A stretch of 64,000 bases of DNA from a phage, in sequence record PZ445523.1; one strand, given 5' to 3'. Below the pieces are notes generated by a model that had not been told where the DNA came from, searched no databases, and saw nothing but the letters and a program-made list of their open reading frames with translations. Shown piece after piece: positions 2,771 to 30,430 of this stretch. Position numbers and translations under genes: made by a program. How positions within the stretch are numbered: position 1 is the first letter of the stretch; each line of letters opens with the position of its first letter.

Positions 2771-4453
2771 TTAAACCATTACAGTAAATCGACCAACTTT
2801 CTTCATTTGAAGATGCTGACCGTATGCTTGCGGGTCATGGTCTCTATGCGAAATAACAAAAACATTAGTATTTTTTAAACTATCTAAAATAGTTGAAATA
2901 GCTTTTACACCTTCAACGTCGGTCGCTGAATCAAAAACTTCATCAAGAATTAGTGTGTTTATTTTAACACCTGAAACTTTTTCAGCAATATCACGCCAAG
3001 TAAATAAAAGAGCAATATCAATTCGTGCTTTTTCACCTTGACTGAATGAAGCATAACTAAAATCTTCGCGACCACGGGATTTAATTGTCTCATTAAATTC
3101 TTCATCTAATGTAAACACATAATCCGCTTCCATTATTTTAAGATAATGGTTAATCTGCTTATTAAATAATGGAATGTACTTTTTAATAATAGCACCTTTA
3201 ATACCAGAATCTTTGAGCATATCAGTCAAAATTCCTCGGTGGTATTTTTCCATTACTAAATTAGTTTTTGTCTTAACAATTTTATCAAGTTCTTCTTGAA
3301 GCAGTGCTATTTCATCAGCATGGTCAATAAACTCAGAAGATGCTTTTTCTATAGCCGCTTTAACTTTTTTAGCTTTATCTACCGTCGTGATTAGAGATTG
3401 CTTTTTATTGCGAATATCATTTGCCAACGACTGTTGGGTTTTAATATTATCTCGGTATTCATCAACAAGAACTTTTAAATTATCACGATGTGTTGAAAGC
3501 TGTTCAAACGAATGCGTACATTCAGAAACTTTATCTTTAATTTTAGAAACAACTTTATCACCGGAACTTAATTGTGACAAGCAGGTTGGACATAATCCAC
3601 CTTCGTGATACATATTAATGACTTTATTATACGAGTCAATTTTTGATTTAATTAAAACTGCTTCTTGACCGATTTTATTAAATGCATCAGTCGGGTCTTC
3701 ATCTAAAACAATATTAACTAATCTTTCGTTAGCTTCTTCTATTTCCGATTTTAGCGTTCTAGCTTCTTTTGCCAAATCATCATACATATTTTGCAGACGA
3801 GTAAGGTTGTCACCCGTTAATTTTTTCTGGCGTTCAACGTTATCATTATATATTTTAATTTGTTGGATAATACTATCTTTTTTAACATCAAGCACTTGGT
3901 TCTGCGAATTTAATTCACGTATTAGTGCTTTATTAAGCTTATCCATTTCAGCTAATGTTCCTACCTCAAGCAGGTCTTCCACAAGCTTTCTTCGCGCAGG
4001 GGTCGACAAACCCATGAAAGGGGTATACCCTGCTGTACCAAGGACAACAATCTGCTTGAAACTGGCATATGACATTCCGATAAGCTGTTCAAATTCTGCT
4101 TGGAAATCTTTACTGCTGGCAGATTCATTAAGACGTGTACCGTTAACGGTGATTTCGAAAACGTTTGGTTTTTGTCCTCTTTTGATATAGTACTTTTTCT
4201 CATCATATTCCATCCACAGTTCAACTAAAAGTTCTTTCTTATTTGTGCTGTTTATTAATTGGCCTTTCTTTACATCACGAAATGGCTTGCCAAAAAGCCC
4301 AAATGTGATGGCTTCCAACATAGTAGACTTACCACCGCCATTTCGTCCAGTAATAAGAGTTTTTTGAACCTTATCTAATTGAATGTCAATAGGATTTCCA
4401 CCTACTGACATTATATTTTGATACCTAACTCGGTTTAGTTTAAAATTCTTCAC
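2771..4453 (-). CDS. 46: Recombination endonuclease subunit gp46 (Rad50/SbcC-like)
   Basis: 560 aa; Walker A GRNGGGKST, long central coiled coil with CPTC zinc hook, D-loop LILDEVFD. Confidence 0.9.
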   Translation of the reverse strand: MKNFKLNRVRYQNIMSVGGNPIDIQLDKVQKTLITGRNGGGKSTMLEAITFGLFGKPFRDVKKGQLINSTNKKELLVELWMEYDEKKYYIKRGQKPNVFEITVNGTRLNESASSKDFQAEFEQLIGMSYASFKQIVVLGTAGYTPFMGLSTPARRKLVEDLLEVGTLAEMDKLNKALIRELNSQNQVLDVKKDSIIQQIKIYNDNVERQKKLTGDNLTRLQNMYDDLAKEARTLKSEIEEANERLVNIVLDEDPTDAFNKIGQEAVLIKSKIDSYNKVINMYHEGGLCPTCLSQLSSGDKVVSKIKDKVSECTHSFEQLSTHRDNLKVLVDEYRDNIKTQQSLANDIRNKKQSLITTVDKAKKVKAAIEKASSEFIDHADEIALLQEELDKIVKTKTNLVMEKYHRGILTDMLKDSGIKGAIIKKYIPLFNKQINHYLKIMEADYVFTLDEEFNETIKSRGREDFSYASFSQGEKARIDIALLFTWRDIAEKVSGVKINTLILDEVFDSATDVEGVKAISTILDSLKNTNVFVISHRDHDPQAYGQHLQMKKVGRFTVMV

Positions 4454-23763: not shown

Positions 23764-24777
23764 TCATTTATAATAACTTCGGTGGTTTTCAAGATAGACC
23801 TTCTCAAGGAAGTCATCCCAGAAACTCATGTCTACTTTTTGCTGCATACCGTTCTTAGAAGCTTCAGTAGATGCTGCTTCTACTTGATCGACCACATCTT
23901 CCAAAAACTCTTGAACCGTTTTAAATGGATGTTTACCCAACTTCACGTCGAGAATAAATGGAGCATCTTGGAGTGGATAAATCAAGTCGCCAGTTTTGTA
24001 AATTTCCAATAGTTGAAGTCCACCACGACAAGCATGGCTCAGAGCTTTCCAGTCAATACCTTCATTGGCTTCAGCCTTACGAGCACGTTCACCGTATTCA
24101 GCATCTAATTTGTTCAGTGACTGCTTAAGCTCAATAAGAGAAAGCGTTGTCTGATATTTACGACCCAACACAGTGTAGAACGTTTGTGGGCCTGTTTTCT
24201 CATGATTATGGAACACCCATTCACAGAATTCGTTTTCTGGAAGACGATGCTTAATATCTTCAACTTTAGTGCGACGCTGCTTAATAGAACCATCTTCTTG
24301 GTAATCAACCCATTGCTCAGGGATTTGATTAACTACTTTCAATACATCACGTAATGCAGCCAAACGAGAACCCTTGACACCGTATTTAGAAGCTTGCTTG
24401 CGGACATATCCTAAATATGATTTCATGTTAGTCGTATAAAAACGAGAACGGTTGTCTTGAATAAACTTCCACACATCAGGCAAATCAGATTTAACCACTA
24501 GTTCAGGTGGAGTGTGAAGCATATCTAATGCTACAGTTTCACCATCTGCTGCTAATTTAAAGAAATATTTAAGACTGTATAGTTCATGGTCAATATCATC
24601 TTTAGTGTTTTTAGATGATGTGTTGTTAGTGTTTTTACTCATATGCTCTTTAACATTTCCGATAAGAATATCGCGAGCAGGAGGAACAAAGATTTCTTTA
24701 AAATCTACATCAGATTCTGGGGTAGAAGTTCCATAAAGATGACTACCAAAATAGCTTTTCATTACTGTTTTCATCAT
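23764..24777 (-). CDS. Nucleotidyltransferase (Pol-beta / minimal NTase fold)
   Basis: N-terminal FGSHLYGTSTPESDVDF matches the GS-x(9-13)-DxD nucleotidyltransferase signature; 337 aa. Confidence 0.6.
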   Translation of the reverse strand: MMKTVMKSYFGSHLYGTSTPESDVDFKEIFVPPARDILIGNVKEHMSKNTNNTSSKNTKDDIDHELYSLKYFFKLAADGETVALDMLHTPPELVVKSDLPDVWKFIQDNRSRFYTTNMKSYLGYVRKQASKYGVKGSRLAALRDVLKVVNQIPEQWVDYQEDGSIKQRRTKVEDIKHRLPENEFCEWVFHNHEKTGPQTFYTVLGRKYQTTLSLIELKQSLNKLDAEYGERARKAEANEGIDWKALSHACRGGLQLLEIYKTGDLIYPLQDAPFILDVKLGKHPFKTVQEFLEDVVDQVEAASTEASKNGMQQKVDMSFWDDFLEKVYLENHRSYYK

Positions 24778-25235
24778 TCAGCCTTATATTCAATAACAGG
24801 ACATACTTTAGCTTTACGAGCTTTTAAAAATTCAACGATAATCGATTTCTTGGGTTGAATAGGAGGTAAACCTTTATACGCCCTATCAATATTTTCTATG
24901 TGTAAAGCATAATCCTTTTTCCATTTATAATCTTTATATTTTTCACGCAAATGTGCAGGAATAACAAATGAACCGATAATAAGTAAAACAACCAAAAGCG
25001 CAAGTATAAATGCTGATGGAAGCAAAGTCCATAAACTACCAAAAATAAGCCAACGTTGTAGGCTTTCTGCACAAATAATTGTTAGCCCTACGAGTATAGC
25101 ACACCCAAAAATAGAAACGAAAAATGTAGGAATAGCAATAGACCAAAAATATGCGCATAGTGTCTTAGGTCGTTGCCATTCATCGTTAAACAATTTGAAT
25201 AATTTATAGTGCCAAGAGTTTTCATTAATAATCAT
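24774..25235 (-). CDS. Integral membrane protein
   Basis: 153 aa with about three predicted transmembrane helices. Confidence 0.5.
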   Translation of the reverse strand: MIINENSWHYKLFKLFNDEWQRPKTLCAYFWSIAIPTFFVSIFGCAILVGLTIICAESLQRWLIFGSLWTLLPSAFILALLVVLLIIGSFVIPAHLREKYKDYKWKKDYALHIENIDRAYKGLPPIQPKKSIIVEFLKARKAKVCPVIEYKAE

Positions 25236-25237
25236 AA

Positions 25238-25759
25238 TTATCCTTTCATTGAAGGCGTAACGGTTGTTAAATACTTAATCATAGCTTCAGCTTCTGATTT
25301 TGATAATGAAATTTCTCCATTGTTTTGACGAATAGAAATAAAATCCGGATGACGGTCACCACCAGCTTTTAAAACACACATATAAGTATCAACTTCGCCT
25401 TCAATATTTGAAATGATTGAAGCAGTTCCACATGAATGTGGTTTTTGATAAATCAATACAGCTTTTCTTCCGCCATTTGACTGTTCATATGCTTTTAACA
25501 CATCAAGCAAATCAGTTCTTTTATCAATAGCTAAAATGTTATTTTCATCTTCAATGTTAAATCCTTCGGATACTTCATAAAGCGTTACCCATAAATCACC
25601 AATGTCAATAACAGCATTTACGTTTCCACGGCTTTCAAGAGCATGACAAATTTTCTTGATTTCGTCATAACTCATTTTAATAATATCATCTCCTTGAATA
25701 AGAAAGATGTCATTTTTAAATTCAACACGAATTAAACCACTTCCACTTGAAATAAACAT
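25238..25759 (-). CDS. Tandem-paralog protein 1
   Basis: 173 aa; C-terminus SKSEAEAMIKYLTTVTPSM resembles the neighbour. Confidence 0.5.
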   Translation of the reverse strand: MFISSGSGLIRVEFKNDIFLIQGDDIIKMSYDEIKKICHALESRGNVNAVIDIGDLWVTLYEVSEGFNIEDENNILAIDKRTDLLDVLKAYEQSNGGRKAVLIYQKPHSCGTASIISNIEGEVDTYMCVLKAGGDRHPDFISIRQNNGEISLSKSEAEAMIKYLTTVTPSMKG

Positions 25760-25765
25760 ATTTCC

Positions 25766-26320
25766 TCACTTTGAAATCATAGTTGGAATGACAGAATCAA
25801 GATAAGTCTTTAGCGCAATAGCTTCGTCTTTGGTAAATGTGACAATATGTGCTCGAGAATCATCAATTTGGCGAACAAGTACGACATCGCCATCTTCATA
25901 AGAAGTCTTGACATCCAAAGTCGTAGTATAATTTGCAGCTACTGGATTAATAATGCTAGCACCGCGATCTTTAGCCCATTGAAGTTTAGACTTTTCGGGT
26001 GTTTCGACTGTTTCAGATTCCAAGAATTCTTTCACCTTGGCAACGAATGTTGCCCAATTGTTGATAGAAAGACACGCAAGTTCAGTTTCAATATTACCAC
26101 CGTGAGTGCCACGATAAAAACGAACTTGGAGGTCGTCTGTAATATTAGTTACACAGGTAACTCCTGAGGGAGCATAAGATAAAATCGCAGGCAATTCCAT
26201 AGGAAGAATAGTAATACTATCGTCTTCCTGCGTCAGAACGTATATATTACCACGTTTTTCGATAACCAGGTCACCGAACAAATCAGTTGTTTCAATTACA
26301 GCTTTCATATTATTTACCAA
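25766..26320 (-). CDS. Tandem-paralog protein 2
   Basis: 184 aa; C-terminus TKDEAIALKTYLDSVIPTM. Confidence 0.5.
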   Translation of the reverse strand: MVNNMKAVIETTDLFGDLVIEKRGNIYVLTQEDDSITILPMELPAILSYAPSGVTCVTNITDDLQVRFYRGTHGGNIETELACLSINNWATFVAKVKEFLESETVETPEKSKLQWAKDRGASIINPVAANYTTTLDVKTSYEDGDVVLVRQIDDSRAHIVTFTKDEAIALKTYLDSVIPTMISK

Positions 26321-26495
26321 TTAAAGTTTCAATATAAGAATCAAGATTTACTTTAGCTTCTTCCATAAGAGTTTTGTATTTAATCTTGTTGGCATGTCCG
26401 GAGAAAGCTGATTCATCAATAATTGTTGATGTATGAACAGCTTTACTATACGTCTCAATTAATTCTCTTAATTTAAAAGCCTGCTCACTTGTCAT
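26310..26495 (-). CDS. Small helical protein, family member
   Basis: 61 aa; MTSEQAFKLRELI...LDSYIETLIGK. Confidence 0.45.
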   Translation of the reverse strand: MTSEQAFKLRELIETYSKAVHTSTIIDESAFSGHANKIKYKTLMEEAKVNLDSYIETLIGK

Positions 26496-26627
26496 TACAT
26501 ACTCCTCTGAATCATATCAATAATGTTGTTCACCAGATTATAAGTAAACATTGGGTAATTATATTGAATCATCACATACACAACAAACAAAACTTTCATT
26601 CTCTTCTCCTTGGCAGTTGACAAGATT

Positions 26628-26657
26628 ACTATACCATAACCTTGCCAACTTGTAAAC
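26628..26657 (-). promoter_or_regulatory. Early promoter
   Basis: GTTTAC, 18 nt, TATAGT. Confidence 0.5.
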
Positions 26658-26823
26658 CATTAAATGACGTTTTCGATAAAATTCTGAAGCTTTGTATGAG
26701 CATCAACCATGATTTTCATTTCTTCTTTGGCGAAAGCTATACCTCTTTCACGAGAAGAATATTCATAGTCAGAAACTGCATTAGCATATTCTTCAATTAG
26801 CTTTCATTAAAAACATCTGCTTT

Positions 26824-27018
26824 TCAGTTTTCATTATTCCACCTAATCATTTCAAGATATTGAACTAACTTAGCTTTGGATTTATCCAAATCCTTTTTAG
26901 CTGCTTCTATACCGTCGTATGAATATCCTTCACAATGCTCAACTGCTAATTGATATGAATCTATTTCAATATCATGCGCTAATTTAATGATTTTTTCAAA
27001 CTGTTCGTGTGTTAGCAT
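26824..27018 (-). CDS. Small helical protein, family member
   Basis: 64 aa; MLTHEQFEKIIKL...LVQYLEMI. Confidence 0.45.
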   Translation of the reverse strand: MLTHEQFEKIIKLAHDIEIDSYQLAVEHCEGYSYDGIEAAKKDLDKSKAKLVQYLEMIRWNNEN

Positions 27019-27020
27019 AC

Positions 27021-27239
27021 TTACACTCTCGTATTATGATCGATAATTTCATCAAGAAACATATCTAACGCTTCTAAAGCATTATCAACTTTAGCTTCAA
27101 ATTCTTCAATACCTGATAAGGCAAAGTTAACGCGTTCCTCATCTGCTTTACGAATTAAAGCTACCAATTCCTTAATTTTATCCGCTTGTTCAATACTAAT
27201 CATTATTCCACCACATATGAAAGAGAGAATATTGCACAC
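27021..27239 (-). CDS. Small helical protein, family member
   Basis: [13 protein letters not shown]...LDMFLDEII. Confidence 0.4.
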
Positions 27240-27391
27240 GCCATGTGAGTTGCAGCTTCATCACACATATTATAACGTTTCTTAAGAAGTTCTACAAGTT
27301 CTTCACTAGTGACTTCATCCATGTCGACGAAAAAATCACCATTAATGATGACGTAGATATTTCCTTCTTGATTGAGTGCTTCAATTTTCAT
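27203..27391 (-). CDS. Hypothetical small protein
   Basis: Likely start MKIEALNQ just downstream of an early promoter. Confidence 0.4.
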
Positions 27392-27419
27392 GATGTTCTC
27401 CTCTTTATCCGATGGTTGT

Positions 27420-27449
27420 ATAGTACCACAGCTCAAACGGAAAGTAAAC
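27420..27449 (-). promoter_or_regulatory. Early promoter
   Basis: GTTTAC, 18 nt, TACTAT. Confidence 0.6.
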
Positions 27450-27464
27450 CGGTAAAATGAAAAA

Positions 27465-27482
27465 AGTCTCCCGAAGGAGACT
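27465..27482 (-). terminator. Intrinsic terminator
   Basis: AGTCTCC-UUCG-GGAGACT followed by TTTTTT. Confidence 0.65.
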
Positions 27483-27486
27483 AATG

Positions 27487-27873
27487 TTATTCGAGGGAAA
27501 GAAGATACTTACTCTGGTAAAACATTCCAGTAATATCATCTATCGTGCTTTGGATGGCTGGAGGCATTTCTTTATAAATGCTGTTAGATTGGTCTAGTAT
27601 GCGATCAATCATTTTAATTGTGTCGGTAGGAAGTTTACTGGCATCTGGAATTGAAGGTGTGTATTTTCGACCAGAATACCCCAAATATTGCTCACCAAAT
27701 TTATCAATCAAATCTGGCAACTCGGAGAAAATAAAATCGTATGCTTTGTGTCTAGCATAACTTTTAGTTTCAAAATGTGCAGAATGAAAATAAGCTTGTG
27801 CAGCCATTAATAAACCTAAGTATTCATCTGCCTTTGAAGGTTTTCCACTTTGTGAAAAGTCGCTGAATTTCAT
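27487..27873 (-). CDS. Hypothetical protein (rI.-1-like position)
   Basis: 128-aa ORF immediately upstream of rI on the minus strand. Confidence 0.45.
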
Positions 27874-28163
27874 TCAGTCTCCAATTTAATGTTCATAATT
27901 CTAGCGTATGATTGTGCCATCTCCGCGCCTCGTTCTATACATTCAAAATCAGAAGAGCACGGGTCATTTTTATAGGTCGTTCTCATAAAACTATAGAATT
28001 GTTCAGACGATTCTACGCTTTTATTTTCAAAAAGCATATAAACGTGCCTAATACCAGATTCCATAAATTTATCAAAATGAGGATCGGCATTCGCTTCAAT
28101 CGATGGAGATAAAACAAATGACAATCCTAGCATGGCAAATAGTGCCGTTGCTTTTAAGGCCAT
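27870..28163 (-). CDS. rI: Lysis inhibition regulator rI
   Basis: 97 aa; N-terminal signal/anchor MALKATALFAMLGLSFVLSPSIEA; matches T4 rI as I recall it. Confidence 0.85.
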   Translation of the reverse strand: MALKATALFAMLGLSFVLSPSIEANADPHFDKFMESGIRHVYMLFENKSVESSEQFYSFMRTTYKNDPCSSDFECIERGAEMAQSYARIMNIKLETE

Positions 28164-28175
28164 AAAGGCCTCCTA

Positions 28176-28388
28176 TCATTTTTGTCCTGTATTTACTTTA
28201 TGCCGATGCACGGCCTTAACTTTATCAAGGTATTTTTCAAAATTTCGCAATCTAGTATAGTCTGCCGGAGATTGGTTGAGTGATACTTCTCGACGCAAAG
28301 CTGAAATGATATTTCCAACTTCCCTACGAATTTCATCTAATTGAAGCACAGTAAGATTGCGAAGTTGCTTTTCAGTTAATTGTAGCAT
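28176..28388 (-). CDS. Hypothetical small protein
   Basis: 70-aa ORF between rI and tk. Confidence 0.4.
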
Positions 28389-28430
28389 ATATACCCCTTT
28401 AGTTAGATAAACCTATTTATAACTTTTGCA

Positions 28431-29012
28431 CTAACCGAGCTTTTTAGTTAATTCATTCCAATGTTTTCTACACAAAGAAACATAAATTTCATCACCAATA
28501 CAGATTTGATTACCTTCTTTAACTGATGTTCCATCTTCCATTAATCGAGCTGTCATAATCGCTTTTTTACCACAATGACAAACTGCCTTTAGTTCAATAA
28601 GTTTATCTGCAATCGCTAAAAGTTCTTTAGAACCTTCAAACAATTTTCCAGCGAAATCAGTCCTTAATCCATAAGCCATAACAGGAACATTATATGTATC
28701 AACAATTCGGCTCAATTGATGCACCTGTTCAGTTTTTAAAAATTGGGCTTCATCTACAAATATGCAATGAATATCTTTTTGTGCTTCAGCCCATTTATAG
28801 AACTCGAAAATATCCATATCATCCGTAATAATATTCGCTTCCTGCTTAATTCCAATGCGAGAAACGACTTCACAGACAGAATCGCGAGTATCAATAGCAG
28901 GCTTAAGAACTAATACGCCCATTCCGCGTTCTTTATAATTGTGTGCAGCAGTCAAAAGAGAAGCAGATTTTCCAGCATTCATTGCTGCATAAGTAAAAAT
29001 TAAACTCGCCAT
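28431..29012 (-). CDS. tk: Thymidine kinase
   Basis: 193 aa; P-loop NAGKSASL, zinc cysteines CHCGKKA. Confidence 0.9.
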   Translation of the reverse strand: MASLIFTYAAMNAGKSASLLTAAHNYKERGMGVLVLKPAIDTRDSVCEVVSRIGIKQEANIITDDMDIFEFYKWAEAQKDIHCIFVDEAQFLKTEQVHQLSRIVDTYNVPVMAYGLRTDFAGKLFEGSKELLAIADKLIELKAVCHCGKKAIMTARLMEDGTSVKEGNQICIGDEIYVSLCRKHWNELTKKLG

Positions 29013-29013
29013 T

Positions 29014-29202
29014 TTAGTCCTTAGTTAAATTTTCTAAATATGTTTCTAAATCATTTTCAGCTTTATCGATAGATTTTACTAATTCGTAATATGTTTCGGC
29101 ATCTCCATATTCAGAAGATATTTCAAAAGACAAATCCTTTTCTAAACTAATAATTTCACCAACTAAAAATAATATTTCGTTCTTTTGTTCGCGAGTAATC
29201 AT
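29014..29202 (-). CDS. Small helical protein, family member
   Basis: 62 aa; MITREQKNEILFLV...LETYLENL. Confidence 0.45.
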   Translation of the reverse strand: MITREQKNEILFLVGEIISLEKDLSFEISSEYGDAETYYELVKSIDKAENDLETYLENLTKD

Positions 29203-29384
29203 AAAGAATTTATATAATCAATGAGTTCTTGCTCTTTATCGTCGAAATCTTTACACAGTTCTTCGTATTCGTCAGTATTAAAAGGACCGCATTCATTACA
29301 AACTTTTTCCAATTCACTATTTTTATCCATAACTTCGTGGATAAGAGAAAAGAGTTTGTCTTTTTGTTCTTTGCTTAGGCTCAT
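29199..29384 (-). CDS. Small helical protein, family member
   Basis: 61 aa; MSLSKEQKDKLFSLI...LIDYINSL. Confidence 0.45.
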   Translation of the reverse strand: MSLSKEQKDKLFSLIHEVMDKNSELEKVCNECGPFNTDEYEELCKDFDDKEQELIDYINSL

Positions 29385-29550
29385 ATATTAATTTCCAGAA
29401 GTTTTAAAATAATTCGCTTTTGCTTAAATATTTCCACAGTTAAATGATCAGTATCTTTTTGACCAATTCCAATGGCAAAACCTTTATTAACAGCGAGTTC
29501 AATTAAATTATCAAGTTCACGTAACACTTCGTATTGTAACTCAGAACTAT

Positions 29551-29763
29551 TCATTTTGGTTTACCTTCTTTAACGAAATCAGGATAAGGATAAAATCCTG
29601 AATAAAATCCTTCACCTTTATGATTGATGCATCCTTTATTAGAACAATAGCACCAATAATCGAAATCACAAGCCATTTCATCATTGCATAAAGCAAAAAC
29701 AACCGGCCACTTACACTTTTCACAGTGGGCATTTTTAAGAATACTAGTTTGGCTCATAACCAT
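29551..29763 (-). CDS. Small cysteine-rich protein
   Basis: 70 aa; HCEKCKW...C...C.C..GC, possible zinc-binding. Confidence 0.35.
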   Translation of the reverse strand: MVMSQTSILKNAHCEKCKWPVVFALCNDEMACDFDYWCYCSNKGCINHKGEGFYSGFYPYPDFVKEGKPK

Positions 29764-29981
29764 GTCACCTTTAAGCAGTATTCTTCTACATGTTGTTTAC
29801 GACCTTTCTTATCAATAAAGGTATATTCAACGAATGTTCCAATGTAGTCTTTATCTACATCATGTGGACTATTAATTGGACATTTAGTACGGCAAATGCG
29901 TTCCCATTGACGAATAATTACTGCCTTATTCTTTGGGTCATACGGATGTGGATAATGTATATTCATAATAACGGTTCCCAA
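29754..29981 (-). CDS. Hypothetical small protein
   Basis: 75-aa ORF. Confidence 0.35.
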   Translation of the reverse strand: MGTVIMNIHYPHPYDPKNKAVIIRQWERICRTKCPINSPHDVDKDYIGTFVEYTFIDKKGRKQHVEEYCLKVTWL

Positions 29982-30430
29982 TCAACAATCACAATTTCTA
30001 ATTTAGAGGAATATGTATCTAAAATCCCCTCAATAATATCCCAGTTCCCTTTACCTATGCCTGCACCAATCCTAGGCATATAGATTGTAGGTTTAATCAG
30101 TTTATTTTCACCAAACTCATTTAATTCTAACATACAATTCATTAAAGCGGAATACTCAAAATTTGGCCCTGGTTGAAATTGAGTATAAAGATTGAAGCAG
30201 TAAGCTTTATGAGTCCTAAAGTATTTTTCATAGACTGAGTAAGAACCGAGTTTAGTTACATCGCCCCATTCTGTCTGTAATTTATCAGCTTCCAAAATTT
30301 TAGGGAAAGCTTTGGTTAATTGACCCGCTACGCCTGAACCCATAGTATGAAAACAATTGCATCCATGCGCAATATTTTTACCTTCAGCGAAAAGGGCGAC
30401 AATATCGCCCTTGATATATTTTACAATCAT
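29963..30430 (-). CDS. Macro-domain protein (ADP-ribose binding or hydrolase fold)
   Basis: 155 aa; GDIVALF...AHGCNCFHTMGSGVAGQL...PRIGAGIGKG resembles macro-domain glycine-rich loops. Confidence 0.55.
   Translation of the reverse strand: MIVKYIKGDIVALFAEGKNIAHGCNCFHTMGSGVAGQLTKAFPKILEADKLQTEWGDVTKLGSYSVYEKYFRTHKAYCFNLYTQFQPGPNFEYSALMNCMLELNEFGENKLIKPTIYMPRIGAGIGKGNWDIIEGILDTYSSKLEIVIVDWEPLL

What the first reader, a model, noticed from the sequence alone, without database searches (positions are those of the whole stretch)
26310..29384. Dispersed family of ~60-aa helical proteins around rI and tk
At least five small ORFs (26310-26495, 26824-27018, 27021-27239, 29014-29202, 29199-29384) share an N-terminal pattern M-x-(S/T)-x-E-Q-x-x-K-(I/L) and a C-terminal (D/E)-L-(E/D)-x-Y-(L/I)-E-x-L. 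Recurrence of one small fold in five early genes suggests a diversified binder family, for example inhibitors of different host targets.
Basis: seen in the sequence. Interest (0 to 1): 0.45.

Follow-up and report, generated by a model that had tools for sequence, protein, structure and literature searches.

The report
Small helical-hairpin gene family in T4-like phage
Five small early genes near rI and tk in this T4-like phage really are one family of ~60-residue two-helix hairpin proteins, but Pfam already lists it as DUF7438 (T4 genes mobD.3, mobD.4, tk.1, tk.2) and nobody knows what it does.

Summary
All five ORFs match Pfam PF24219 (DUF7438) over its full length, at 50-69 bits against a cut-off of 25. 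Each is recovered by a profile built from the other four. AlphaFold2 predicts an antiparallel two-helix hairpin for the two members modelled (pLDDT 88-90).

The window is a Tequatrovirus. The ORFs are orthologues of T4 mobD.3, mobD.4, tk.1 and tk.2, plus a fifth type that T4 lacks. A sixth copy, mobD.2a (26660-26834), is broken here by one extra A and is intact in the closest relatives.

The family sits in two tight tandem clusters, so it is not truly dispersed. Copy number was 3 to 6 in the T4-like genomes examined, and a Kagunavirus siphophage has one copy.

The shared motif is structural: a helix N-cap (S/T-x-E-Q) and heptad hydrophobic residues at the open end of the hairpin. Surfaces and hairpin tips differ between paralogues.

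In T4 the four proteins are made early or mid infection, and each gene is individually non-essential. tk.4, close upstream, is the anti-DarTG2 factor AdfM. No solved structure, named family or paper gives a function.

The reading "diversified small binders of host targets" fits the data and is untested. The family and genes are already known. Interest is low to moderate.

The parts
26310..26495 (-). DUF7438 paralogue 'A' (61 aa). It has no counterpart in T4, is present in 193 phage records, and RefSeq/PHROG label it 'helicase loader', which is unsupported.
   Evidence: - ORF listed.
- PF24219 hit at 57.8 bits; phrog_4859.
- AF2 hairpin, helices 3-28 and 34-59, pLDDT 87.6.
- tblastn finds it in 193 records.
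- No similarity to T4 gp59.
26660..26834 (-). mobD.2a, a sixth DUF7438 copy. It is disrupted here by a +1 frameshift, an extra A in the AAA run at 26802-26804. Its ATG at 26834 overlaps the end of mobD.3 by 11 nt.
   Evidence: - Profile hit to the 47-aa C-terminal frame, E 0.02 rising to 1e-13 with the larger profile.
- Alignment with e11/2 and T4 shows the single-base insertion.
- The intact 57-aa form is present in e11/2, RB10, T6, JK23 and RB18.
- The frame-corrected protein scores 56.2 bits against PF24219.
26824..27018 (-). mobD.3 orthologue (64 aa), a DUF7438 member.
   Evidence: - PF24219 hit at 64.4 bits; phrog_653.
- 97% identical to T4 MobD.3.
27021..27203 (-). mobD.4 orthologue (60 aa from the ATG at 27203; the short-loop allele, as in T4), a DUF7438 member.
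   Evidence: - PF24219 hit at 49.6 bits.
- 95% identical to T4 MobD.4.
- Orthologues differ by loop indels of 0 to 7 aa, while the helices are almost invariant.
29014..29202 (-). tk.1 orthologue (62 aa), a DUF7438 member. It overlaps tk.2 by 4 nt.
   Evidence: - PF24219 hit at 55.6 bits.
- 100% identical to T4 Tk.1.
- Absent from RB10.
29199..29384 (-). tk.2 orthologue (61 aa), a DUF7438 member.
   Evidence: - PF24219 hit at 69.4 bits.
- AF2 hairpin, helices 5-30 and 37-60, pLDDT 89.7.
- Two allele classes among 740 phage records.
26628..26656 (-). Sigma-70-type early-promoter-like site (TTTACA-17-TATAGT with an extended -10 TG). It lies just downstream of mobD.2a and upstream of mobD.2 and paralogue A.
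   Evidence: - Best promoter match in the region, 10 of 12 positions.
- It lies at the equivalent position to T4 early promoter Pe57954, between mobD.2a and mobD.2 (PMC6024815; T4 coordinates). The correspondence is inferred.
27465..27482 (-). Terminator-like hairpin between rI.-1 and mobD.5, that is, upstream of the mobD.5-mobD.4-mobD.3 block.
   Evidence: - Terminator scan.
- A terminator is annotated at the same position in phage e11/2.

Best explanation
**What it is (shown).** The five ORFs, plus a frameshifted sixth, are paralogues of one old phage-specific family, Pfam DUF7438. They arose by tandem duplication and lie in two clusters flanking the rI-tk block of a Tequatrovirus. Each encodes a standalone protein of about 60 residues, usually acidic. 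AlphaFold2 predicts an antiparallel two-helix coiled-coil hairpin.

**What the shared motif is (partly shown, partly inferred).** The conserved N-terminal S/T-x-E-Q reads as a helix N-capping box. The other shared residues are heptad a/d hydrophobics, with an extra hydrophobic cluster where the two termini meet at the open end of the hairpin.

**What varies (shown).** Exposed helix faces and the hairpin tip differ between paralogues. The tip is conserved within the mobD.3 and tk.1 orthologue groups and hypervariable in mobD.4, tk.2 and A.

**Expression and need (shown for T4 orthologues).** The genes are expressed from early transcripts and made as proteins. Each is individually dispensable in the laboratory, and copies are gained, lost and recombined between related phages.

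**Mechanism (inferred, not shown).** These are accessory modulators with no catalytic site. They act by stoichiometric protein-protein binding. Either the paralogue-specific surface and tip contact different partners, or the hydrophobic open end packs against a partner helix or a second copy to form a four-helix bundle. The partners are most likely host proteins involved in takeover or defence.
For: **Family membership**
- Pfam hits at 50-69 bits; PHROG hits.
- Leave-one-out profiles recover each member.
- Only these six loci in the window match a 70-sequence profile.

**Fold and composition**
- AF2 hairpins with pLDDT 89.7 and 87.6.
- Column analysis: T/S4, E6, Q7, L11, L14, I15, L54, Y/F57, I/L58 and L/I61 are conserved; the rest run at about 3 bits of entropy.
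- Window copies have pI 4.2-6.1. The family median pI is 4.5, and 60 of 70 members are below 5.5.

**Coding status**
- Pooled pN/pS is 0.17-0.44 for four of the five genes, on small counts (tk.1 showed one synonymous change and none non-synonymous), so they are coding and under purifying selection. This is looser than the neighbours tk, vs and rI.-1, at 0-0.1.

**Tip behaviour and turnover**
- Tips are conserved or hypervariable depending on the orthologue group.
- The 9-kb tk-mobD region holds 6 copies in T6, 5 in RB10 and 3 in a Mosigvirus; a whole-genome scan of T4 finds 4 plus a remnant.
- tk.2 has two allele classes.
- In-frame tk.2/tk.1 hybrids and a mobD.3/nrdC.11 deletion fusion exist.

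**Expression and dispensability in T4**
- Protein-level expression (PMC9697503 supplement).
- Non-essential by transposon sequencing (bioRxiv 10.1101/2025.11.20.689424 supplement).
- A viable nrdC.11-mobD.3 deletion (PMC9825161).

**Context**
- tk.4, close upstream of tk.2 on the same strand, is the anti-DarTG2 factor AdfM.
- Neighbours are not conserved across T4-like phages, a Kagunavirus and metagenomic contigs. This suggests an autonomous protein.
Against: - No binding partner, oligomeric state or phenotype is known for any member.
- There is no evidence of positive selection at whole-gene level.
- Part of the tk.2 and tk.4 divergence in RB10 looks like mosaic replacement of a block, not an arms race.
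- The main text of the T4 transposon screen names none of these genes, and they were not significant (adjusted p = 1.0) in the one comparison table I read (condition not identified). Redundancy among paralogues could hide an effect.
- Divergent surfaces on a conserved core are also what neutral drift of old paralogues would give.
- Proximity to adfM is only guilt by association.
Confidence: 0.55

Rival explanations
1. The hairpins act on the phage's own machinery, not on host targets. They could be adaptors or regulators of phage complexes encoded nearby, such as nucleotide-precursor enzymes (tk, nrd) or the lysis-inhibition proteins rI and rI.1, or more generally assembly or chaperone-like helpers.
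For: - The genes sit among tk, nrdC.x and rI.
- Tk.1 and Tk.2 protein accumulates with tk in the 'middle protein' class.
- In the Kagunavirus St162 the single copy follows the primase/helicase gene.
- mobD.3 and tk.1 are as conserved within Tequatrovirus as their housekeeping neighbours, at 97-100%.
Against: - No conserved neighbour is shared across lineages.
- Copy number varies from 3 to 6, and whole copies are missing from otherwise near-identical phages.
- All copies are individually non-essential. This pattern is more typical of accessory, host-directed genes.
Confidence: 0.2
2. Rop-like nucleic-acid binders: the hairpins dimerise into four-helix bundles that bind structured RNA or DNA and tune early gene expression.
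For: - Length and hairpin topology are similar.
- A few family members are basic, for example St162 gp14 at pI 9.2.
Against: - No sequence relationship to Rop or to any solved structure.
- The match is no better than to hundreds of unrelated hairpins.
- The window copies carry net charge -1 to -10, and no conserved basic residues exist in the family profile.
Confidence: 0.05
3. Largely functionless, decaying leftovers of old duplications that persist in a hyperplastic region of the genome.
For: - mobD.2a is frameshifted in the window and in the T4 reference sequence.
- Deletions and fusions are tolerated.
- All copies are non-essential.
- Constraint is relaxed relative to the neighbours.
Against: - pN/pS is well below 1.
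- Reading frames are intact and starts translationally coupled in hundreds of phages.
- The proteins are detected in T4 infection.
- The family is kept across Tequatrovirus, Mosigvirus and even a siphophage genus.
- Loop motifs such as CEGYSY are conserved at about 50% overall identity.
Confidence: 0.05
4. Chance resemblance between unrelated short helical ORFs of similar composition.
For: Pairwise BLAST between paralogues is not significant.
Against: - An independent curated Pfam model hits all five, at E down to 3e-19.
- Leave-one-out profiles recover each member.
- An exhaustive search finds only about 50 cluster representatives in 1.84 billion, nearly all 57-65 aa.
Confidence: 0.01

Closest known systems
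Pfam PF24219 / DUF7438 (T4 MobD.3 P39238, MobD.4 P39237, Tk.1 P13306, Tk.2 P13307); PHROG 653 and 4859
   Same: - The window ORFs are members, with full-length hits above threshold.
- They are 89-100% identical to the T4 proteins.
- Positions and gene order match.
   Different: - The window carries a fifth type that T4 lacks, at 26310-26495.
- It has a private frameshift in mobD.2a.
- The family has no assigned function, so membership explains nothing about mechanism.
Rop/Rom of ColE1 plasmids (63-aa helical hairpin that dimerises to a four-helix bundle and binds RNA kissing complexes)
   Different: - No sequence homology.
- The phage proteins are mostly strongly acidic, with no conserved basic face.
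- Dimerisation is not shown.
Small T4 early modulators that work by stoichiometric binding (for example AsiA on sigma-70, Dmd on RnlA, Arn on McrBC). The comparison rests on my own knowledge of these proteins.
   Same: Small, early, non-enzymatic, dispensable in laboratory hosts, and encoded in the same kind of early accessory gene blocks.
   Different: - No homology or specific fold similarity was found.
- No partner is known for any DUF7438 protein.
- Those proteins are single-copy, whereas this is a multi-copy paralogous family.
T4 PseT.1 (75 aa, outside this window)
   Same: The N-terminal MIS-x-x-Q...L-K-x-LI and C-terminal L-x-D-Y-I-Q-S-L motifs align end to end with the family profile (hmmsearch E 3e-5; hhalign probability 68%, E 5e-5).
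   Different: - Longer arms.
- No hit to the Pfam model.
- Membership is not established.

Membership tests
Pfam DUF7438 (PF24219) | Whole-protein score at or above the curated gathering score (25 bits) | tested here: met
   57.8, 64.4, 49.6, 55.6 and 69.4 bits for the five ORFs. 56.2 bits for the frame-corrected mobD.2a.
Pfam DUF7438 (PF24219) | Match covers essentially the whole 57-position model in a standalone protein of about 60 aa | tested here: met
   Profile positions 1-57 are matched in every case, and the proteins are 60-64 aa.
Pfam DUF7438 (PF24219) | Common fold (two-helix hairpin) across divergent members | tested here: met
   AF2 predictions only: tk.2 helices 5-30 and 37-60, pLDDT 89.7; A helices 3-28 and 34-59, pLDDT 87.6. 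No experimental structure exists.
Rop/Rom (PF01815) | Sequence-profile match to the Rop family | tested here: not met
   No Rop hit at E<=1 in Pfam. No Rop chain in the PDB profile search at E<=10.
Rop/Rom (PF01815) | Homodimeric four-helix bundle with an RNA-binding face | not testable with these tools
   Only single-chain prediction is available. The acidic composition argues against an RNA-binding face. Fold similarity is generic.
T4 gp59-type helicase loader (the label carried by phrog_4859 and RefSeq for ORF 26310-26495) | Sequence similarity to gp59 or its Pfam domains | tested here: not met
   BLASTP against T4 gp59 gives best E 0.9 over 8 residues. No gp59 domain in Pfam at E<=1. The protein is 61 aa, against 217 aa for gp59.
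MobD molybdopterin-guanine dinucleotide biosynthesis protein (the RefSeq label on mobD.4) | Match to any molybdenum-cofactor biosynthesis family | tested here: not met
   No such hit in Pfam or NCBIfam. The label is a name collision with the T4 gene symbol mobD, a mobile endonuclease.
Known anti-phage defence proteins (PADLOC-DB) | Profile match to a defence-system component | tested here: not met
   No hit below E 0.01; there is one weak chance-level hit to a methyltransferase model. PADLOC holds defence proteins, not anti-defence proteins, so this does not test the counter-defence idea.
rI.1 family (PF26904), considered as a possible seventh member inside the finding's range | Profile-profile similarity to DUF7438 | tested here: not met
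   hhalign probability 4.7% over 16 columns. rI.1 homologues carry their own Pfam family.

The most novel reading that the evidence does not exclude
DUF7438 is a modular 'hairpin scaffold' toolkit. The capped, hydrophobic open end is a constant module. The hairpin tip and exposed faces are specificity modules, so each paralogue (and each allele of mobD.4 and tk.2) neutralises a different host defence or host factor. Copy-number changes, loop indels and in-frame hybrids between copies would then be the traces of an arms race. This would make the rI-tk flanks, together with adfM (tk.4), a counter-defence island in T-even phages.
Probability: 0.2. Interest if true: 0.65.

Novelty: already known. 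Interest (0 to 1): 0.28.

Why it matters
About 130 of T4's roughly 300 genes remain uncharacterised (bioRxiv 10.1101/2025.11.20.689424). A multi-copy family of tiny early proteins, expressed and kept across T-even phages, is a reasonable place to look for new host-takeover or counter-defence factors.

This analysis adds practical points for anyone who tests that idea.

- The family has six loci here, one of them broken, so single-gene knockouts may be masked by redundancy.
- The shared motif is structural, so mutational tests of specificity should aim at the tip and the exposed faces.
- The RefSeq/PHROG labels checked here ('helicase loader' and 'molybdopterin-guanine dinucleotide biosynthesis protein MobD') are unsupported, and the T6 'kilA' label looks equally arbitrary; none should be propagated.

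As a discovery it is ordinary. The family is already in Pfam, and the genes have long been annotated in T4.

Tried and rejected
**Candidate extra members**
- rI.1 (28176-28388) has a superficially similar T-E-K-Q start and F-E-K-Y-L end. It is rejected: hhalign probability 4.7%, and it has its own family, PF26904.
- T4 PseT.1 is suggestive only: E 3e-5 and hhalign 68%, but no Pfam hit. It also lies outside the window.

**Annotation label**
- The 'helicase loader' label for ORF A is rejected.

**Structure and family searches**
- PDB sequence-profile search: nothing below E 0.17.
- Foldseek against PDB: no hit at E<=1e-3.
- BFVD: only uncharacterised small proteins, the best-scoring ones from enterobacterial phages.
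- PADLOC and NCBIfam: nothing.

**Sequence-level checks**
- DNA-level repeats between copies: none, so no recent duplication or gene conversion.
- Whole-gene pN/pS gave no sign of positive selection.

**Literature**
- Searches on DUF7438, mobD.3, mobD.4, tk.1 and tk.2 found no functional study in the held library.
- The 2003 T4 genome review is not held.

**Technical losses**
- One structure job was lost and rerun.
- The afdb50 library was unavailable.


Full report
**What the window is**

The 3.8-kb region around the finding is 96-98% identical to many Tequatrovirus genomes, including Shigella phage JK23, Escherichia phage e11/2 and RB18. Gene order matches T4 nrdC.11 ... mobD.1-5, rI.-1, rI, rI.1, tk, tk.1-4, vs, regB. 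All genes here lie on the minus strand.

The five ORFs of the finding correspond to:
- 26310-26495: a gene with no T4 counterpart, called 'A' here
- 26824-27018: mobD.3
- 27021-27203: mobD.4
- 29014-29202: tk.1
- 29199-29384: tk.2

**Checking the observation**

The ORFs exist as described. The third most likely starts at the ATG at 27203 (60 aa, as in T4), not the upstream GTG.

A MAFFT alignment keeps E, Q, L12 and L51 invariant among the five, at 17-21% identity to the first sequence.

Independent evidence that they are homologous is strong:
- Every one matches Pfam PF24219 (DUF7438) over the whole 57-position model, at 49.6-69.4 bits against a gathering score of 25.
- Four fall in phrog_653. 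The fifth falls in phrog_4859, with weaker hits to 653.
- A profile built from any four ranks the fifth immediately after the training sequences among all 923 stop-to-stop ORFs of the window, E 1e-6 to 0.1.
- A relaxed two-part regex finds exactly these five among 224 M-start ORFs of 45-90 aa, and none in 50 shuffles. The regex was fitted after the fact, so it is only illustrative.

Pairwise BLAST is not significant and no DNA repeats link the copies. The duplications are therefore old.

**A sixth copy**

The profile also hit a 47-codon frame at 26663-26803. Read with one frame change, the stretch 26834-26660 encodes MKTEKQMFLMK...NFIENVI. This is gene mobD.2a, whose ATG overlaps the end of mobD.3.
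- Phage e11/2 has it intact at 57 aa. So do RB10, T6, JK23 and RB18.
- The window has one extra A in the run at 26802-26804.
- The T4 reference has a different 1-nt deletion. The T4 stock used for transposon sequencing carries a 174-nt gene.
- The frame-corrected window protein scores 56.2 bits against PF24219.

This is either a private pseudogene or a homopolymer sequencing error.

A 70-sequence profile finds nothing else in the window. In the complete T4 genome it finds only the four known genes, the split mobD.2a and, weakly, PseT.1.

rI.1 looks superficially similar but is not related.

The layout is two tandem clusters 1.8 kb apart: A, then mobD.2a/mobD.3/mobD.4 on the far side of mobD.2, and separately tk.1/tk.2. 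It is not truly dispersed.

**Size and spread of the family**

- A word-indexed search of 5.8 billion proteins found 111 clusters. All are assignable to the six orthologue groups and come from T4-like contigs.
- An exhaustive HMMER scan of 1.84 billion cluster representatives found only 50 hits at E<=1e-3, nearly all 57-65 aa.
- By tblastn, A is present in 193 phage records and tk.2 in 740.
- tk.2 occurs in two allele classes: >=80% identity in 169 records and <60% in 571.
- The 9-kb tk-mobD region holds 6 copies in T6, 5 in RB10 (no tk.1) and 3 in the Mosigvirus AV116; a whole-genome scan of T4 finds 4 plus the remnant.
- A clear member (46 bits) follows the primase/helicase gene of the Kagunavirus siphophage St162. 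The family is therefore not confined to T4-like phages.
- In-frame tk.2/tk.1 hybrids exist. So does a mobD.3/nrdC.11 fusion, which matches a viable nrdC.11-mobD.3 deletion in a T4 genome-reduction study (PMC9825161).

**Structure**

AlphaFold2 with family alignments predicts a helix-loop-helix hairpin for two members:
- tk.2: helices 5-30 and 37-60, pLDDT 89.7
- A, the most divergent member: helices 3-28 and 34-59, pLDDT 87.6

No relative has a solved structure. Fold searches give no functional lead:
- Foldseek against PDB gives nothing at E<=1e-3.
- In BFVD the best matches are uncharacterised ~60-aa proteins of other enterobacterial phages, many with T4-like names.

**What the shared motif means**

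Weighted column statistics on 70 diverse members show two kinds of conserved position.
- T/S4, E6 and Q7 sit at the start of helix 1. The spacing is that of an N-cap box. This is an inference from established helix-capping rules.
- The hydrophobic positions 3, 11, 14, 15, 18, 25 in helix 1 and 43, 47, 54, 57, 58, 61 in helix 2 follow a 3-4 heptad spacing, with conserved Ala near the middle of each helix.

Conservation is strongest where the two termini meet, at the open end of the hairpin. Exposed positions run at about 3 bits of entropy. The motif is therefore the scaffold.

Within orthologue groups the hairpin tip behaves in two ways:
- It is strongly conserved in mobD.3 (AVEHCEGYSY) and tk.1 (SEYGDAETYY).
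- It is hypervariable, with 0-7-aa indels, in mobD.4, and variable in tk.2 and A.

The proteins are mostly acidic. Window copies have pI 4.2-6.1 and net charge -1 to -10. The family median pI is 4.5.

**Selection and expression**

- Against T4, T6, RB10 and e11/2, pooled pN/pS is 0.17-0.44 for four of the five genes (tk.1 had one synonymous and no non-synonymous change), and 0-0.1 for tk, vs, tk.4 and rI.-1. Counts are small. The pattern indicates purifying selection that is relaxed relative to the neighbours, with no whole-gene sign of positive selection.
- In T4, MobD.3 and MobD.4 are classed early RNA and early protein. Tk.1 and Tk.2 are early RNA and middle protein. MobD.2a has no protein class assigned (PMC9697503 supplement).
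- A promoter-like site (TTTACA-17-TATAGT with TG) lies at 26656-26628. It is at the position of T4 early promoter Pe57954, upstream of mobD.2 and A.
- A terminator-like hairpin lies at 27482-27465.
- Transposon sequencing of T4 classes mobD.2a, mobD.3, mobD.4, tk.1 and tk.2 as non-essential on E. coli K-12 (bioRxiv 10.1101/2025.11.20.689424 supplement).
- The same study shows that tk.4, close upstream of tk.2 on the same strand, is the anti-DarTG2 macrodomain AdfM, and that vs matters in minimal medium. Its main text names none of the DUF7438 genes.

**Most likely mechanism**

Shown:
- This is a small, old, phage-specific family of expressed, dispensable early proteins.
- AF2 predicts hairpin structures for them.
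- The scaffold is conserved, while surfaces and tips are specific to each paralogue.
- Copies turn over between close relatives.

Inferred:
- With about 60 residues and no conserved polar cluster beyond the helix cap, a catalytic role is implausible. They most likely act by binding other proteins.
- Different paralogues probably recognise different partners.
- The extra hydrophobic cluster at the open end suggests packing against a second copy or a partner helix.
- Whether the partners are host proteins (takeover, defence) or phage proteins is open. I put about 0.55 on the overall picture with host-directed binding, about 0.2 on a phage-internal role, and small weights on RNA binding, decay or chance.

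**Comparison with known families, and novelty**

The ORFs are members of DUF7438, and all membership criteria I could test are met.

They resemble Rop only in generic fold. They are not related to gp59, despite the 'helicase loader' label. They are not related to molybdenum-cofactor proteins, despite the 'MobD' label.

The family, its T4 members and their paralogy (one Pfam and one PHROG entry) are already on record. Only the function is missing. I found no paper in the held library that studies any member.

**Verdict**

This is a correct observation of a known family of unknown function. Interest is low to moderate.

Noticed in passing
window 26660-26834 (-), extra A in the run at 26802-26804: mobD.2a, a sixth DUF7438 gene, is frameshifted here. 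It is intact in the closest relatives (JK23, RB18, e11/2, RB10, T6). The T4 reference NC_000866 carries a different 1-nt deletion, while another T4 stock has the intact 174-nt gene. This is either recurrent pseudogenisation or homopolymer sequencing errors.
   Followed up: yes
window 26310-26495 and 27021-27203; loci L001, L002, L012: RefSeq/PHROG names on these small proteins are unsupported. 'Helicase loader' (phrog_4859) has no similarity to gp59. 'Molybdopterin-guanine dinucleotide biosynthesis protein MobD' is a collision with the T4 gene symbol mobD. T6 also carries 'kilA', 'rI antiholin' and 'tail assembly protein' on neighbouring small ORFs.
   Followed up: yes
window 29963-30430 (-), tk.4: This 155-aa macrodomain gene is the orthologue of T4 tk.4 (100% identical). 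A 2025 preprint names it adfM, an anti-DarTG2 counter-defence factor. It lies close upstream of tk.2 on the same strand. The RB10 allele is only 58% identical.
   Followed up: partly
window 25238-25759 (-) and 25766-26308 (-): The 173-aa ORF and the neighbouring mobD.1-like ORF are paralogues of each other (28% identity over 173 aa, E 5e-8). This is a second tandem duplication beside the hairpin family. In this phage the two ORFs 24774-25235 and 25238-25759 lie where T4 has the mobD homing endonuclease gene.
   Followed up: partly
window 29381-29554 (-) and 29551-29763 (-): Two small ORFs (57 and 70 aa) lie between tk.2 and tk.3. They are absent from T4 and present in T6, RB10 and e11/2. The 70-aa one is Cys-rich (C-x2-C ... 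C-x-C ... C-x4-C) and may bind metal. Neither belongs to DUF7438.
   Followed up: no
T4 genome 134908-135135 (locus L005 23909-24136), outside the window: T4 PseT.1 (75 aa) aligns end to end with the DUF7438 profile (hmmsearch E 3e-5; hhalign probability 68%). It does not hit the Pfam model. It may be a remote, longer-armed member next to the spanin genes.
   Followed up: partly
proteins P0039, P0064, P0060, P0079: There are natural or laboratory in-frame hybrids. One type joins the tk.2 N-terminal half to the tk.1 C-terminal half, for example in phage UFV-AREG1. The other joins the mobD.3 N-terminal half to the C-terminal end of nrdC.11, which matches the viable nrdC.11-mobD.3 deletion reported for genome-reduced T4.
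   Followed up: partly
window 26495-26599 (-), mobD.2: A 34-aa hydrophobic peptide gene (MKVLFVVYVMIQYNYPMF...) sits between paralogue A and the mobD.2a remnant, directly behind the early-promoter-like site. One metagenomic protein (P0041) is a read-through fusion of mobD.2a and mobD.2.
   Followed up: no
locus L013 (Salmonella phage St162, Kagunavirus) 4001-4186: A basic (pI 9.2) DUF7438 member lies directly downstream of the primase/helicase gene of a 42-kb siphophage. The annotated start is probably 24 codons too far upstream. This shows the family outside Straboviridae.
   Followed up: partly
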